Positions 27,001-33,000 of a stretch of 64,000 nucleotides of DNA are shown here, piece after piece. The position numbers were made by a program. The stretch's first letter is position 1. Each line of letters begins with the position of its first letter. This stretch comes from Escherichia coli (lineage in GTDB: Bacteria; Pseudomonadota; Gammaproteobacteria; Enterobacterales; Enterobacteriaceae): the NCBI RefSeq assembly GCF_050320075.1, contig NZ_CP190018.1. The stretch is one strand, 5' to 3'.

Positions 27001-30000
27001 CGTCAGGGCGGAACGTCCGTCTTTTATCCGGAGGTTCCGATGTTTATTCCACTTCTGTTTCGCGCAGAGATGCGCCTGACACCTTTCTTTCAGCGACTCA
27101 GACAACGTCTGTGTTATCCGGTGAGTCGTGTTCATACACAACATCCCTGGTCTTCTCCACAGTTGCGGCACCTTTACTGCACGCCGTGGTTTGTTAACGC
27201 CACCGGCAATCTGGCAGTCCGTGCCTGCATTGTTTCCATTGACGGTTCTTTGCGACACTGCTTTGAGTTCCGTGAAGGCTCTCACAGCCGTGAATACCGT
27301 TTCTGGTTTGAGGCGCTTCCTTTGTCGGTACTGCGTTTTAACGCTTTTACCGGTCGAATATCCGATCGCCGTACACTCTCTGCTGCCTCCCGTATGGCCG
27401 CGCAGCTTACTTCCTTTCGCTATCGCTTCGGTTTGCGCTGAAGCTGTTTGAGGTCGTTATGACCGTCATTTTCTCTACGAGCAGCGTTGTCTGATCGCGC
27501 CATTCAGAACGCGATGACAAAGCTGATTTTTCCTTAACCCGTCCGGGACCGCTTCCGTTCGGGGAACGGTCTCTCTGTTTCTGGAGATTGTTTATGGGAC
27601 TCGATATTTTTTTCCTTGGGCGTGATCGTGTTTGTGTTACCGACGCAGTGGTATCGGTACCGGAAACGCGGGAAGTGGGGTACTTTCGCAAGGTTAACCC
27701 ACTGATTGCCTGGTTTGAGAAGCATTGTGGACCGGTTGAAAATGCCGTGGAGCGTCCGGTTTCCAGAACGGAACTGGAGGCACTACTGAGCGATCTTGAA
27801 TGCCTTACGCCGGAGAACTGCCGGGAATTCTTCCCCACAACAGAAGGATTCTTTTTTGGCTCTCAGGAGTATGACCAGTATTACTGGAAGGATGTTGAGG
27901 ACGTGAAGTCGTGGGTCAGACGCACGCTTGATTCGTTTGATTTTGAACGAAAAATACTGTTGCTCTGGGCATGGTGGTAACTATTTCTCAGTCCTTGTTT
28001 TTAACCATGTGATTATTCGCAGAGGCCCGACAGCTCTGGCCTGCTTTTATTCCGGAGAATGAGATTATGCAAATAAGTGCAGAAACTCGCGCTGTTTTAC
28101 GTCACTACAGACAGATCATTAACGCCAGACGGCGTGAAGATGGCATGAAAGCTCTCAGCACGCCGCAAATCGTTGATGAGATCTGTGAGTTTATGCTCAG
28201 CCAGCCAGCAGTGTATCTGGGGGGGCAGTTCATCATGCAGAAGGCCAGAACAAGATAGCTGTCTTTGTTCATGGCTTTTCAACAGACCGTTATGCTTTCG
28301 CCACCACATGGTGAGGCGGGTCTGATTTTACTGTTAACCGTACGGTTCACTCTCATACCGTACGGTGGGAGTGAACCCTTTTCATTAAGGACACTCTCAT
28401 GAAAACGAAAACTTCTGCACCTGCTGTATATGTTGGTACCTGGGCTAAATACAACAATGGCAGCATAGAAGGATGCTGGTTTAATGATTTAACCGTTTTT
28501 GAAACTGAAAGCGATTTTTTAGCTGCGGCCCGTAAGTTTCATAAGGATGAAAAAGATCCTGAATTTATGTACCAGGATTATGAAAACTTTCCTTCGGGAA
28601 TGGCTTCAGAATATGGTTTCAACTGGGCTTATGTTGAAGGTTATCGTCTTGCCCGTGAAGAAGGCTGTGAAGATGCATGGTATGCATGGGTTTCTAATAC
28701 CGGTGATACCTGTTTCGAACAGTTCAGGGGGGCGTGGCTTGGTGGTCCTTATGACAGTGAACTCGAGTTCGCCGCGCAGTACGTGGATGAATGCGGTTTT
28801 CTGTCAGAGGTACCTGATACTGTTGCACGCTATTTTGATTATGAGGCTTTTGCGCGCGATTTGTTCATGGAACTGGATTTTGTCGACGGACACGTTTTCC
28901 ATAGGTAACTCACAGCCATGAGGGCGCATATAAGCCGTGTACTGGCGGATGTGATTTCAGCATACATTCTGCTGGTTTTTTTACCGTTGTTGACAATTTT
29001 AATCATCGCGGATGAACAACCTGAACTCTGTTGTTCACCGCCCGGAGGCATCGTTCCTTCGGACGGTGTGCTCTTTCATCAGAAAGAATCAGACAGGGGG
29101 TTTTATGTATTCGCGTTTTATTACTGGTTACTGGCATCTTCAGACGCAGTCCGCTTTGCTGGCACATCTCTGTCAGCTTGAAGGTGAACTGACGATACTT
29201 CGCGCCTGGCAACGTCTCGGAATTACCCCGGTGCCGGAGGATGAAGATGAGCCTTCACCACTTTACTCAATTTTGTGGGATGTTGGTGAGGCTCTGGGCT
29301 GGTTGCTGTATGACCTGGAGATGGAAAATGTTCCTGCACCGGGAACGATTTTCCACGAGGTATTCGACAGGGTTATATCTCTGGGGTATGAGACTGAGCC
29401 CGGTATCTGGGCTGAAAGTATCAGTACCGGAAAGCGCTACGCTGCAATGCCTGACGAATTTTAATGTTTTCCACATTCCCACAGGGACTCATCCCTGTGG
29501 GACGGGTCCCGGCTTTTTCAGGAGAAATTTCATGAGACCCGATTTGAATACTTTACCCGGAGATTCCGGCTGCAGCGTCTGGTTCTATGACGGAATGTCT
29601 CAACCGCGTCTGCTGGCGGGCAGTATTGCCGGGTTACTGACGGATGTTACGATCACATCGAATTACCGTGGTGACGTCACATCTGAAATTCATGACGTGG
29701 TGCAGGAGTGGCTTGCGACCGGCAGGGGGAAGAACTCTGGTACTACAACCTCTACATAAATCCGTCGGCAGACGAACTTATGAATGCCAACAGGCGGTAT
29801 GGCCTCGGACATACCACCTGGCTGAAAGGCTTTATCAATAACGCGGCGTGACACACCGCCATCCCGTGAGGGCTCAGCTCCTCACGGGGCTGTTCCCTCA
29901 GTGATTTTCATACAGAGAGGAGCAGAATGATGAACGTTAAGTCTGTGACTGAGGTTGACGACGCTGTGGTTGCCCGTGTCAGTGAAGTTCTGGAATTCGC

Positions 30001-33000
30001 ATTTCCGGGGCAGAAATTTGAAGTGCTGAAGGTATGCGATTCCGGTGTTTACAACATGATTAATGTGTACTGGCTGGACGGCCCGACACAGGCTGAAGTG
30101 CGGTTTATCACCCGTGCGTTTGAAGGCAAAAACGGGCTGAGGTTTGTGCACGAATCCCGCGAATTCAGTAATGAATTTGTGCAGGAGTGCATTGACCGGC
30201 TTCGCCAGAAGTACGGGCAGAGCAACGTTCCGCCAGATGTGACCGTGGAGCGTTACTGGAAAAACGATCTGTGGAAGATTAAAACAGATCGTTTCCCGGG
30301 CAATATTGAGGTTGCCATCAACGAAATGGGGATGGAAACCAGTAAATACCGGAAGGTTGTATAACCGGCTGGACTTTTGACGATGGCGGAATGTGACAAT
30401 TCCGCTTTTCCCGTGAGGGCATTGTTCCTCACGGGACAATGCCCTCTTCATTTACCAGAGGAGCATTGATTATGGCTGAATGGTGCAGAAATCGTTTTGA
30501 AATCACCGGTAAGTCAGTCTGTCTTGACGTACTGATTCAGTGGATTGAAGGGAATGATGCCCCCCGGTACCGTCATGCGATCCAGCAGAGCATACTGCTG
30601 TTTCTTGCAGGCTGTGCGGGGATACTGAAACCGGTAAGAACGGTGACATATCCGCCTTATCCAGGGCTGGTCAGTCACGGTGCCGGCTCAACAACTGTAG
30701 CCAGCCAGGCGTTTGAACAATGGCTGGGATTACTGGCCAGGGATGCCTTCCTTGATCACGAGACGGTGAAGACAATAGATCGTCTTTATCATCAGACAGG
30801 GACAGGCGCGATCCGGTGGAGTAATCTGCCTGATACGGCGAAGGAGATAATCGGTGGTGTGCTTGCACAACAATATGCTGACTGGTTTGGCGTGGTGGAT
30901 GTGTATGAACGCCCTGATAACGCCTGTCTCTGGGAGTCGTTGTTAACATTTGCGGAGTATTCGCAACCCTGCGATATGCTGCAGGTGATGCCAACGCGGC
31001 TGGCCACGGAGCTGAACGGAAGTGGTGGTCTGCTGAAAGGCACCGGAACGACCCGCAGTTTTTACTGCCGCCAGTTTGGTATGGAGTACCCACTGGGGCA
31101 GAATGTCCGGTGGAAACGAACCGGGCTGAGTACGTTGATACTGGAGTTTGATACCATCTGGTGTCCGCCTTCAGGTGTACTGGTGGGGGAAATTTCATCG
31201 GTGTTTGACTGCGAGATACGCCACTGGTACAGCGAACCAAAGAACGGGATCAATGGTTATGACTGTTATGATGGTGGTGAACATATGGACAGCAAAACGG
31301 AAGCTGAATGGCCGCAGTCTGACCACGCAGAGGAGCACGAACAGACTCATCTGTATCTGGTCAGGGATTCGCAGCCAGGTGAACGTGCCACAGCATCAGC
31401 TGAGTCCTCAGGGGCGACAGCAAAAATAATGTAATAAAACAATGCGCCACATTCTGTGGCGCTTTTTTTCAGGACTGGCGTTATTACATTTGTGGGTCAA
31501 TTTTTGTTATTTTTTTTTATGGTTATTAGCTCACCTAATATTTCGAAGTTATCAGGTGGGCAGTTAATCCATTTGTCAGAGCCTGCTATGATTTCCCTGT
31601 CCCAACGTTTTATTCTTTTGCCATTTCTTTCTATGCATATCATGTAATTTGATGGGGTCATTAATTCTTTGGATGCCGAAAGACATTCCTTAAATGATGA
31701 CATTTCAAGCAAATTTTCCTCGCCTGAATTTTCACGGTAAAAAATGTACCATTTTGTGTCTTTCTTATTAGTTTTCATACGGGTATTCCTGGCGGATAAC
31801 TATAAAGACCTTATGAATTTCCAGTAAATAACTGAATTTATTCTGTAAGAACAACAGACAGAACAATGATGTCTGTTTTACGTATACGATGTAGCCAATG
31901 ATTCAACGCATTATCGGCTATATTGCCCGTCTTATTCAGTGCCAGATTTGTCTTGAAATGATGGTGCTTACCCTCCTGTATTGTGAAAGTTGCTGCGCGG
32001 CTTCATTAGTAAAATCTCTCCCCCGGTCATTACCCACGCGAAGACGTCCGCCTTCAATATCACGCATTCTGGCAAGCATAATGGTTTTTGATAACGGTGA
32101 AAAACCCAGCTGCAATCCTGCCGGTGTGCTCTTCCTGTTTCTCATCAGTCATTGTCCCTGTTTCAGTGTAGTTGCCAGCATGCCGCTGACGGTATGCGGC
32201 ATGCTGTCTGGGTGTTCAGAATGTGACGCTCAGTTGTGCCACTGCCCCGTATGTATTGTCCGTACCGGCCAGACCGGCAATATCCAGGTGCACCACATCG
32301 AACGGCGAGAGACCAATACCGGCAGTGAATGCACTGCCGTTGTTGCTGGCCAGATTCTGGCGGTAACCGGTACGTAACTGTGCCCATTTCCAGGTATTAA
32401 ACTCAGCACCAACGGCGGCAAACTGACGTTTGCTGTCTGATGTGAAGCCGCTGGCCGGGGTCAGATCCACATCCAGTGCCGTGGTGAACATGTCGTTGTG
32501 CCATGATACGCCGGTCGTTACCTGCGGACGGATCCTGAAGGTTTCAGTGACACCATTTACTTCTTTGGTCTCAATGCTGCGTGGGATCAGGTTCTGGGCG
32601 ACCAGACCCAGCGTCCAGTTGTCATCCAGGTCCATGCTGGCACCGATGTCGGCGTTGATGCCATTTTTCGTGTTGTGGTAGCGGTCTCCCCTGAATGCGC
32701 TGCTGTCATAATTTTTGACCAGCACGTTGTAGTTGAACAGATCAACACGCTGGAATTTTGGTGTGAAACCCAGAGACCATTTTTGTCCGGCCGTTTCCAG
32801 TTCAGTGGCCAGCGCAACGCCCACATCGGTGATCAGTGCGGCACGGGCAAAAGCCTGAGAGGTCAGTCTGTCTTTATCCACATCCTGACCGTTACTGTTT
32901 GCAATGCTTTCCAGATAGTTCAGGTCGGCATCGCTGACTTTACCGTCGACGCTGACAGTCCCGAACGTTTTCAGCATCAGTGCAGCAGCGAGGGTATCAC

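What the first reader, a model, noticed from the sequence alone, without database searches (positions are those of the whole stretch)
27594..31434. ArdA lies within a run of small acidic proteins, a candidate anti-defence cluster
The ArdA DNA mimic is flanked by several co-oriented genes encoding small proteins with acidic patches and strong ribosome-binding sites. Cargo clusters like this often hold multiple inhibitors of restriction and other defences, and the neighbours could not be assigned to known families.
Basis: inference. Interest (0 to 1): 0.55.

Follow-up and report, generated by a model that had tools for sequence, protein, structure and literature searches.

The report
ArdA operon of an E. 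coli ICE
The ArdA anti-restriction gene sits in a run of eight same-strand genes, behind a known RNA motif (STAXI), inside a conjugative island of an E. coli chromosome; related mobile elements carry the same module, so the unnamed acidic neighbours are good untested candidates for new anti-defence or establishment proteins, though this kind of cluster is already known.

Summary
Seven annotated + strand genes fill 27594-31434, each with a GGAG-type ribosome-binding site. Five have pI 4.3-5.1, against 12% of the island's other genes.

Corrections:
- One gene is basic (63 aa, pI 10).
- One is 320 aa, so not small.
- One is a frameshift-truncated copy of a 112-aa gene.
- Two belong to named families: LPD29, and DUF1281/Api92 (solved structure 2ijr).

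The window is an SPI-7/PFGI-1-type integrative conjugative element (ICE) at tRNA-Phe in E. coli. The cluster is the array of a conserved module: STAXI RNA, EFASI RNA, Integrase_1 gene, STAXI RNA, gene array. A sigma-70-like promoter sits at 26603 and a terminator at 31444.

All seven related loci scanned carry this module, with ArdC, ArdC-methylase fusions, DUF1281 and methylases in place of ArdA. Relatives of the 63-aa gene, DUF1281 and LPD29 lie in plasmid leading regions beside antirestriction genes. The 128-aa family neighbours ArdA, ArdB and ArdC genes and ICE relaxases.

Best reading: an anti-restriction and establishment operon. Only ArdA has a known mechanism. oriT is unmapped and no function was tested. 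It is a new member of a known kind, of moderate interest.

The parts
23910..24069 (+). STAXI RNA motif, copy 1 (start of the conserved module)
   Evidence: Rfam RF01728, 89 bits against a gathering score of 40.5. A sigma-70-like promoter lies upstream at 23805.
24547..24669 (+). EFASI RNA motif
   Evidence: Rfam RF02957, 70.7 bits against a gathering score of 51.2. It holds the same position between STAXI and the integrase-like gene in all seven related loci scanned (L005, L007, L008, L009, L011, L012, L018).
24827..25744 (+). Integrase_1 / Phage_int_SAM_2-type tyrosine recombinase-like gene, the conserved anchor of the module
   Evidence: RefSeq calls it 'integrase domain-containing protein'. 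It is 45-69% identical to the Integrase_1 genes (PF12834/PF12835) that head the arrays in L005-L012.
26603..26632 (+). sigma-70-like promoter (TTGAAG-18-TACAAT) upstream of STAXI copy 2
   Evidence: Found by the promoter scan. All 12 STAXI copies examined have an equivalent site just upstream. This is a consensus match only.
26660..26860 (+). STAXI RNA motif, copy 2; probable 5' leader of the ArdA operon
   Evidence: Rfam RF01728, 138 bits over 26707-26860. An extra 46-nt repeat unit starts at 26660 (family D1).
27040..27441 (+). orf133, a conserved basic (pI 11.4) first gene of the array. RefSeq annotates it as a 197-aa ORF from 26848 that overlaps STAXI.
   Evidence: GGAGG at 27030 precedes the ATG at 27040. 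It is homologous to the first gene after STAXI in L005-L011. The 133-aa form is called on at least 1000 contigs. pI.
27594..27980 (+). hyp128, an acidic (pI 4.67) alpha/beta protein of a large unnamed family with an invariant MGLD N-terminus and FRKVN and GFFFGS.YD motifs
28067..28258 (+). hyp63, a small basic protein (pI 10.0); possible regulator
   Evidence: 58.7% identical over its full length to an ORF in the IncI-gamma/K1 leading region, between the antirestriction/DUF1380 genes and ssb. No Pfam or PHROG match.
28344..28377 (+). 13-bp-stem hairpin just upstream of ardA
   Evidence: Terminator-like scan. Its function is unknown.
28399..28908 (+). ArdA antirestriction protein (169 aa, pI 4.28, net charge -19)
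   Evidence: Pfam ArdA E 3e-24. PDB 2w82 E 2.7e-8. phrog_2059 'anti-restriction protein'.
28957..28975 (+). hairpin followed by seven T, after ardA; possible partial terminator
   Evidence: Terminator-like scan.
29105..29464 (+). hyp119, an acidic (pI 4.29, net -13) predicted four-helix bundle with a D/E-rich loop; a rare family
   Evidence: 17 clusters in the 5.8-billion-protein set and 11 representatives among 1.84 billion. AlphaFold2 pLDDT 88.8. Every distant relative examined lies in a STAXI/Integrase_1 array with ArdC.
29532..29851 (+). hyp112 pseudogene: a 75-aa ORF (29532-29759) plus the out-of-frame remainder (to 29851)
   Evidence: Intact relatives are 112 aa. The gene is intact in strain AR_0089. 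Sequence.
29862..29899 (+). hairpin element CCCGTGAGGG..CCTCACGGG upstream of the LPD29 gene
   Evidence: A second copy lies downstream of the gene.
29927..30364 (+). LPD29-domain protein (145 aa, pI 5.5)
   Evidence: Pfam PF18847 E 8e-6, a partial match. RefSeq name. 36% identical to an IncN-plasmid LPD29 protein that lies near antirestriction, MucR-family and stbABC genes.
30409..30446 (+). second copy of the hairpin element, downstream of the LPD29 gene, with an alternative 14-bp stem
30472..31434 (+). DUF1281 + DUF1281_C (Api92/YubB-like) protein, 320 aa, pI 5.07
   Evidence: Pfam E 9e-65 and 9e-14. PDB 2ijr api92 E 9e-105. More than 5000 plasmids carry a relative. Rank-27 leading-region family in the Samuel 2024 supplement.
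31444..31462 (.). bidirectional terminator-like hairpin (GCGCCACATTCTGTGGCGC followed by a T run) at the end of the array
   Evidence: Terminator-like scan, found on both strands.

Best explanation
The region is the gene array of a conserved anti-restriction and establishment operon. It belongs to an SPI-7/PFGI-1-type integrative conjugative element (ICE) inserted at tRNA-Phe in E. coli.

Shown:
- A sigma-70-like promoter (26603) precedes a STAXI RNA motif (26660-26860).
- Eight + strand genes follow: orf133, hyp128, hyp63, ArdA, hyp119, a frameshifted hyp112, LPD29 and DUF1281.
- A strong hairpin with a T run closes the unit at 31444.
- The unit is the second half of a module (STAXI, EFASI, Integrase_1 gene, STAXI, array) that recurs in other enterobacterial islands with different antirestriction cargo.

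Established knowledge: ArdA is a dimeric DNA mimic that binds and blocks Type I restriction-modification enzymes.

Inferred:
- The array is expressed when the element enters a new host, and its products act there.
- The acidic proteins hyp128, hyp119 and hyp112, and perhaps LPD29 and DUF1281, act as protein inhibitors or decoys of host defence or DNA-processing factors.
- The two basic proteins, orf133 and hyp63, act as regulators or nucleic-acid binders of the unit.

Only ArdA's mechanism is known. The rest rests on guilt by association.
For: - ArdA identity.
- ICE context (TIGR037xx transfer genes, MOBH-type TraI, integrase next to tRNA-Phe).
- STAXI and EFASI hits. The same order STAXI, EFASI, Integrase_1, STAXI, array occurs in all seven related loci scanned (L005, L007, L008, L009, L011, L012, L018). 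These loci were fetched through distant hyp119 or hyp128 relatives.
- Those arrays carry ArdC (ArdcN + MPTase), ArdC-CbtA-N6_Mtase fusions, DUF1281, DUF3085 and an N6 methylase.
- A promoter-like site precedes all 12 STAXI copies.
- A third STAXI in the same ICE precedes the ssb operon.
- Plasmid leading-region relatives of hyp63, DUF1281 and LPD29. Samuel et al. 2024 supplement.
- LPD domains have been proposed as early-invasion factors (PMC5512222). LPD29 genes occur in aca4 operons (bioRxiv 10.64898/2026.07.27.740549).
- hyp128 family: next to a KlcA/ArdB-type gene in Salmonella and one gene from ArdC in a Xenorhabdus ICE. In 68 species-level loci its top neighbour families are ArdC (11 loci) and the ICE relaxase TIGR03760 (10 loci).
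- Acidity is enriched and conserved.
- MPF_G ICEs are known to be rich in STAXI, which has been linked to anti-restriction (bioRxiv 10.1101/135814).
Against: - Invariant polar residues in hyp128 (D4, K33, and nearly invariant R32 and N35) could mean an enzyme rather than a mimic.
- oriT and the transferred strand are unmapped. In this ICE the array lies about 22 kb from uvrD-traI.
- No Frpo-like long hairpin was seen.
- Internal hairpins (28344, 28957) may break the unit into several transcripts.
- Only 13 of 68 hyp128-family loci have a detectable Ard gene within 6 kb.
- This copy shows decay: the hyp112 frameshift, a 2.9-kb deletion after DUF1281 and a disrupted upstream zinc-finger gene.
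Confidence: 0.6

Rival explanations
1. Only ArdA counters defence. The neighbours are general establishment, regulation or DNA-handling genes of the ICE, for example controlling STAXI-led operons, protecting single-stranded DNA, modulating the SOS response or helping recombination with the Integrase_1 protein. They do not inhibit immune systems.
For: - orf133 and hyp63 are strongly basic.
- orf133 is the one invariant gene after STAXI in all loci, which suits a regulator.
- The plasmid relatives lie among ssb, psiB, psiA and parB-like genes, which are establishment functions.
- STAXI also precedes the ssb operon.
- hyp128 has invariant polar residues suggestive of catalysis.
Against: - The acidic families keep their negative charge at low identity.
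- They co-vary with three different antirestriction families rather than with ssb or psiB.
- The arrays are variable in content, as accessory arms-race genes tend to be.
Confidence: 0.27
2. The small proteins are immunity, antitoxin or addiction components that stabilise the island in its host.
For: - CbtA-toxin and CbeA-antitoxin domains occur in related arrays.
Against: - No toxin-like partner lies in 27040-31434, and Pfam shows no toxin domain.
- The family's context is relaxase-proximal and also includes phage regions of small genes.
Confidence: 0.06
3. The neighbours are decaying, functionless cargo that merely hitch-hikes beside ArdA.
For: - hyp112 is frameshifted.
- 2.9 kb is lost after DUF1281.
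- The upstream zinc-finger gene is split.
- mcr-1/ISApl1 has been inserted nearby.
Against: - Apart from the frameshifted hyp112, the array ORFs are intact, with ribosome-binding sites.
- The exact proteins looked up (orf133, hyp128, hyp63, LPD29) occur on 100 to over 1000 contigs.
- The families persist at 23-50% identity with conserved motifs and charge.
- The models are confident folds.
Confidence: 0.05

Closest known systems
Plasmid leading-region anti-defence islands (Samuel et al., Nature 2024; PMC11541004)
   Same: - Co-oriented runs of small genes around ArdA/ArdB/ArdC, orphan methylases and many unnamed families.
- DUF1281 is one of their top-100 leading-region families.
- Relatives of hyp63 and LPD29 lie in IncI/K and IncN leading regions.
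   Different: - This one is in a chromosomal MPF_G/MOBH ICE.
- It is preceded by a sigma-70-like promoter plus a STAXI RNA motif, not by a recognisable Frpo/ssi single-strand promoter.
- Its position relative to oriT is unknown, and it lies about 22 kb from traI.
STAXI / EFASI RNA motif contexts (Weinberg et al. 2010, PMC2864571; Rfam RF01728, RF02957)
   Same: - STAXI lies next to antirestriction, ssb/topoisomerase and integrase genes.
- EFASI lies between STAXI and an integrase gene. This is exactly the arrangement seen here.
   Different: The motifs' function is unknown. This work adds two things:
- a promoter-like site before every copy examined;
- a conserved basic first gene and a variable antirestriction array after the second copy.
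ArdA of Tn916 (ORF18) and ColIb-P9
   Same: Homologous by Pfam and PDB 2w82, similar size and strong negative charge, and carried on a conjugative element.
   Different: Sequence identity to ORF18 is low. Inhibition of Type I enzymes by this copy is untested.
Api92 of the Yersinia pseudotuberculosis YAPI island (PDB 2ijr); plasmid YubB/YccB/YfdA proteins
   Same: The DUF1281 protein matches api92 over residues 3-276 at E 9e-105. YAPI is a related tRNA-Phe ICE with a pil operon (PMC4458695).
   Different: No function is known for any member.
Polyvalent-protein LPD domains (Iyer et al. 2017; PMC5512222)
   Same: LPD29 is one of the domains proposed to act early in invasion, including in solo form near type IV secretion genes.
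   Different: Here it is a stand-alone 145-aa protein with only a partial Pfam match. It is untested.
DNA-mimic proteins such as DMP12, Ocr and ArdA
   Same: hyp128 and hyp119 are small, with net charge -8 and -13. hyp119's charge density equals that of ArdA here. hyp128 has weak fold similarity to DMP12.

Membership tests
ArdA antirestriction family (PF07275) | Significant match to the ArdA profile over most of its length | tested here: met
   Pfam ArdA i-E 3.1e-24, model positions 1-147 of 155.
ArdA antirestriction family (PF07275) | Homology to a structurally solved ArdA DNA mimic | tested here: met
   2w82/7bto ORF18 ArdA, E 2.7e-8, residues 9-163.
ArdA antirestriction family (PF07275) | Strongly acidic protein of about 165-170 aa | tested here: met
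   169 aa, pI 4.28, net charge -19.
ArdA antirestriction family (PF07275) | Inhibits Type I restriction-modification enzymes | not testable with these tools
   Needs a restriction-alleviation assay.
DUF1281 / Api92-like (PF06924 + PF18406) | Both the N-terminal DUF1281 domain and the C-terminal ferredoxin-like domain are present | tested here: met
   Pfam E 8.6e-65 and 9.1e-14. PDB 2ijr E 9e-105.
LPD29 (PF18847) | Match to the LPD29 profile | tested here: inconclusive
   i-E 8.3e-6, but only model positions 7-57 of 93. Supported by the RefSeq name and 36% identity to IncN LPD29 proteins.
STAXI-associated antirestriction context (Rfam RF01728) | STAXI motif above the gathering score, adjacent to an antirestriction gene on the same strand | tested here: met
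   138 bits against 40.5 at 26707-26860. ardA lies 1.5 kb downstream on the same strand.
Leading-region anti-defence island (Samuel et al. 2024) | Contains at least one known anti-defence gene among co-oriented small genes | tested here: met
   ArdA plus seven co-oriented genes.
Leading-region anti-defence island (Samuel et al. 2024) | Lies within the first ~30 ORFs after oriT and is encoded on the transferred strand | not testable with these tools
   oriT and nic are unmapped in this ICE family. Related ICEs place the array directly upstream of uvrD-traI. Here it is about 22 kb away.
Leading-region anti-defence island (Samuel et al. 2024) | Frpo/ssi-type single-strand promoter upstream | tested here: inconclusive
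   No long promoter-bearing hairpin was found; fold z-scores were -0.9 (RNA) and -1.8 (DNA). A sigma-70-like site plus STAXI was found instead. No homology search with known Frpo sequences was run.
DNA-mimic proteins (for hyp128 and hyp119) | Surface carboxylates that mimic the DNA phosphate backbone and bind a DNA-binding target | not testable with these tools
Known anti-phage defence proteins (PADLOC-DB) | Match to any defence-system model | tested here: not met
   No hits for the nine proteins tested.

The most novel reading that the evidence does not exclude
At least one of the unnamed acidic families is a new inhibitor of a bacterial defence or DNA-processing system that works alongside Ard proteins. 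The best candidate is the hyp128 'MGLD' family. It has about 900 clusters in Proteobacteria, Firmicutes, Actinobacteria, archaea, phages and phage-plasmids, and it recurs beside ArdA, ArdB, ArdC and relaxase genes. A second part of this reading is that STAXI-led operons (ssb, integrase, Ard array) are the ICE counterpart of the early-expressed leading-region operons of plasmids.
Probability: 0.35. Interest if true: 0.65.

Novelty: new member of a known kind. Interest (0 to 1): 0.42.

Why it matters
This ICE carries mcr-1 (colistin resistance) and is widespread in poultry and human E. coli. The genes that let it establish in defended recipients therefore bear on how resistance spreads.

The analysis gives a short, ranked list of conserved small proteins to test: hyp128, hyp119, intact hyp112, LPD29 and DUF1281. 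It also ties them to a defined regulatory unit of promoter, STAXI leader and array.

STAXI and EFASI have had no known function since 2010 and 2017. The promoter before every copy, the conserved first gene and the three STAXI-led units in one ICE (ssb, integrase, Ard array) make that question directly testable.

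Tried and rejected
- NCBIfam gave no matches for any cluster protein.
- PADLOC gave none.
- Megablast against plasmids found only short DUF1281 pieces, so this is not a plasmid.
- PDB sequence searches for hyp128, hyp119 and LPD29 gave only chance-level hits. A profile search with the hyp128 alignment gave the same.
- Foldseek against AFDB50 for hyp128 found only uncharacterised proteins, two of them labelled DUF4253.
- Pfam scans of every member of the hyp128, hyp119 and orf133 alignments found nothing.
- tblastn of hyp119 against plasmids found nothing.
- Thermodynamic folding of the STAXI region as RNA or as template-strand DNA did not differ from shuffles and showed no Frpo-like hairpin.
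- The idea that the hairpin pair flanking the LPD29 gene marks integron-like cassettes was dropped. The element occurs only twice, and only in this ICE lineage.
- Literature searches for a mapped oriT in this ICE family, and for a description of this mcr-1 ICE, found nothing usable. The ICEEc2 paper is not held.
- A first literature search on 'STAXI' returned only psychology papers.

Full report
**1. What is there**

The window matches a chicken E. coli chromosome (NZ_CP123240.1) at 100% identity over 27000-32000. The annotation of that record shows an integrative conjugative element (ICE) of about 80 kb. It runs from a ParA gene at 870.5 kb to an integrase next to tRNA-Phe. It carries TIGR037xx-type transfer genes, a type IVb pil operon with a shufflon, a UvrD-like helicase and a TraI relaxase. 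A composite ISApl1-mcr-1-pap2-ISApl1 transposon lies beside traF.

Inside the finding's coordinates RefSeq calls seven + strand genes: hyp128, hyp63, ArdA, hyp119, hyp75, LPD29 and DUF1281. ORF listing agrees.

**2. Check of the observation**

- ArdA is genuine: Pfam E 3e-24, homology to the solved Tn916 ArdA E 2.7e-8, and the PHROG family 'anti-restriction protein'.
- All seven genes have GGAG-type motifs at the right distance from the start codon.
- The pI values are 4.67, 10.0, 4.28, 4.29, 4.65, 5.54 and 5.07.
- Of 73 other genes of the same ICE, 12% have pI below 5.1 and 3% below 4.7. The excess of acidic proteins is therefore unlikely by chance, with binomial probabilities of 5e-4 and 2e-5. 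The thresholds were chosen after the fact.
- Acidity is conserved within families at low identity.

- hyp63 is basic.
- DUF1281 is 320 aa.
- hyp75 is a truncated copy of a 112-aa protein. After 'GRG' the reading frame is lost, and the rest of the protein is readable out of frame up to 29851. The gene is intact in strain AR_0089.
- The RefSeq 197-aa ORF upstream (26848-27441) is over-extended across an RNA motif. The conserved gene is a 133-aa basic protein starting at 27040 behind a GGAGG.

**3. Family assignments**

- LPD29 (PF18847, partial match, E 8e-6) and DUF1281 + DUF1281_C (E 9e-65 and 9e-14) are named Pfam families.
- The DUF1281 protein is a close relative of Api92 of the Yersinia YAPI island, which has a solved structure of unknown function (2ijr, E 9e-105).
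- hyp128, hyp63, hyp119, hyp112 and orf133 have no Pfam, NCBIfam or PADLOC match.
- Some have PHROG families of unknown function. hyp128 matches phrog_7971 at E 3e-25.

**4. The larger unit**

An Rfam scan found a full-length STAXI motif at 26707-26860 (138 bits), on the same strand and 0.7 kb upstream of hyp128. A second STAXI lies at 23910 and an EFASI motif at 24547, just before an Integrase_1-type gene at 24827-25744. STAXI stands for 'Ssbp, Topoisomerase, Antirestriction, XerDC Integrase' (PMC2864571). MPF_G ICEs are known to be rich in it.

A third STAXI in this ICE, outside the window, lies between topoisomerase III and the ssb operon. All 12 STAXI copies examined, in the window and five other loci, have a sigma-70-like promoter match just upstream. 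In the window this is TTGAAG-18-TACAAT at 26603-26632.

The array ends at a strong bidirectional hairpin with a T run at 31444-31462. Terminator-like hairpins are over-represented in the region, 19 found against 6.8 ± 2.8 expected. Some lie between genes (28344, 28957, 29862, 30409), so a single transcript is an inference.

**5. Related loci**

hyp119 belongs to a very small family: 17 clusters in the 5.8-billion-protein set, and 11 representatives among 1.84 billion. I looked up the genomic places of four distant relatives at 23-33% identity.

Every one sits in a co-oriented array downstream of an Integrase_1 gene. The arrays carry ArdC (ArdcN + MPTase-PolyVal), polyvalent ArdC-CbtA-N6_Mtase fusions, DUF1281, DUF3085 and an N6 methylase, often next to umuDC.

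Rfam shows the same order in all of them: STAXI, EFASI, Integrase_1, STAXI, array. A Xenorhabdus ICE reached through hyp128 shows it too.

Content is mix-and-match:

- orf133 relatives are always the first gene.
- hyp119 is sometimes duplicated in tandem.
- hyp128 and DUF1281 are present in some arrays.
- ArdA here is replaced by ArdC elsewhere.

**6. Plasmid and phage relatives**

- DUF1281 relatives occur in more than 5000 plasmids, mostly conjugative. In an IncI-gamma/K1 plasmid the gene heads the classic leading region: methylase, DUF1380, antirestriction, ssb, DUF905, parB-like, psiB, psiA.
- That same region holds a 63-aa ORF 58.7% identical to hyp63.
- In the supplement of Samuel et al. 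2024, a DUF1281 family (YubB/YccB/YfdA) is the 27th largest leading-region family, at median position 22 from oriT.
- LPD29 relatives occur in 179 plasmids, 152 of them conjugative. In an IncN plasmid the gene lies between an antirestriction gene and the MucR-family and stbABC genes.
- Iyer et al. proposed LPD domains as early-invasion factors. A 2026 preprint notes LPD29 genes in anti-CRISPR-associated operons.

**7. The hyp128 family**

It is large: 907 clusters with no Pfam family. It has an invariant MGLD N-terminus and FRKVN and PT.GFFFGS.YD..Y motifs.

It occurs in ~110-kb non-mobilizable plasmids of E. coli and Klebsiella (326 records) and in seven phage records, six of them about 108-110 kb. 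I take these to be SSU5-like phage-plasmids, which is my inference from size and typing.

Its context is more telling:

- In a Salmonella island it sits directly upstream of a KlcA/ArdB-type gene, in a DUF905, DUF932, RadC, CbeA, CbtA module.
- In a Xenorhabdus ICE it lies one gene from ArdC, in an array that runs straight into uvrD-traI.
- In a metagenomic phage it lies among small genes between nucleotide-metabolism and replication genes.
- A one-genome-per-species scan gave 68 loci. Within 6 kb, 13 have a recognisable Ard gene (ArdC 11, KlcA-type 2, ArdA 1). These include 11 of the 17 highest-scoring loci (L021-L037).
- Unbiased clustering of neighbours ranks ArdC first (11 loci). The ICE relaxase TraI ranks second (10 loci; TIGR03760, 192 bits against a cut-off of 161). 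A group of seven loci in Eggerthellaceae and related Coriobacteriia lies next to a MobP1-like relaxase, a weak match at E 3e-5.

**8. hyp119**

**9. How it most likely works**

Shown: the anatomy (promoter-like site, STAXI leader, eight genes, terminator), its recurrence as a module, and the identity of ArdA.

From established knowledge: ArdA dimers mimic DNA and block Type I restriction-modification enzymes.

Inferred:

- The array is expressed on entry into a new host.
- The acidic neighbours act as inhibitors or decoys.
- The basic orf133 and hyp63 act as regulators.
- The unit is the ICE analogue of a plasmid leading region.

In simpler relatives the array abuts uvrD-traI-int. Here about 22 kb lies between them: traF, the mcr-1 transposon, the shufflon and the pil operon. 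If oriT lies near traI and traI enters last, the + strand genes would be transcribed toward oriT, as in plasmids. This is untested.

I saw no Frpo-like hairpin. The G-U pairs and UUCG loops noted by Weinberg et al. favour STAXI acting as RNA.

**10. Verdict**

The finding is real and its reading is reasonable but unproven. Specialists would not be surprised. STAXI-antirestriction contexts, LPD domains and leading-region islands are all published.

What is new here:

- the full module anatomy;
- corrected gene models;
- two well-supported candidate families, hyp128 and hyp119;
- the link between ICE arrays and plasmid leading-region families.

It is a new member of a known kind, of moderate interest.

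Noticed in passing
window 33372-38052: A composite ISApl1-pap2-mcr-1-ISApl1 transposon (Tn6330-like, colistin resistance) is inserted in the ICE next to traF. mcr-1 lies at 35230-36855 on the - strand. One ISApl1 copy (33372-34346) is annotated with an internal stop.
   Followed up: partly
window 23910-25744 and 26660-26860; L005, L007, L008, L009, L011, L012, L018: The order STAXI, EFASI, Integrase_1 gene, STAXI, gene array is conserved in every related locus scanned. All 12 STAXI copies examined have a sigma-70-like promoter match just upstream. The role of the recombinase-like gene in this module is unknown.
   Followed up: partly
L002 20245-20398 (NZ_CP123240.1 885244-885397, upstream of the window): A third STAXI copy in the same ICE lies between topoisomerase III and the STY4534/ssb operon. 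One element therefore has STAXI before its ssb unit, its integrase unit and its antirestriction unit.
   Followed up: partly
window 26848-27441: The RefSeq 197-aa 'hypothetical protein' overlaps STAXI and looks over-extended. The conserved gene is a 133-aa, very basic (pI 11.4) protein from 27040. It is always the first gene after the second STAXI, with W.NATGN.AVRA and LA.LRYRF motifs.
   Followed up: partly
window 29532-29851: The 75-aa gene is a frameshift-truncated copy of a 112-aa protein. The C-terminal part is readable in another frame (29708-29851).
   Followed up: yes
window 31434-31497, compared with L013 7955-10867: Compared with E. coli AR_0089, about 2.9 kb is missing after the DUF1281 gene. 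The missing stretch holds a DNA methyltransferase fragment and three hypothetical genes of 243, 200 and 391 aa.
   Followed up: partly
window 25748-26356 (- strand): The zinc-finger gene between the integrase-like gene and STAXI is split into two ORFs here (75 aa and 108 aa). It is a single 246-aa gene in AR_0089.
   Followed up: no
window 29862-29899 and 30409-30446: Two copies of a hairpin element (CCCGTGAGGG..CCTCACGGG, 79% alike over 38 nt) flank the LPD29 gene. The second copy can form an alternative 14-bp stem. The element is found only in this ICE lineage.
   Followed up: partly
window 21574-21837: A type B (zinc-independent) ribosomal protein L31 paralogue is annotated within the low-GC cargo part of the ICE.
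   Followed up: no
window 1-20200 compared with 20200-46000: There is a sharp composition break. The transfer-gene block is 53-64% GC, while the cargo, array and pil region is 35-53% GC. AT skew reaches -0.25 at 27-28 kb.
   Followed up: no
L004 (NZ_OP378623.1) and phage records H55-H60: hyp128 relatives (37-41% identity) occur in 326 plasmids of about 110 kb, nearly all typed non-mobilizable, from E. coli and Klebsiella, and in seven phage records. These are probably SSU5-like phage-plasmids. The gene lies in a run of small hypothetical genes.
   Followed up: partly
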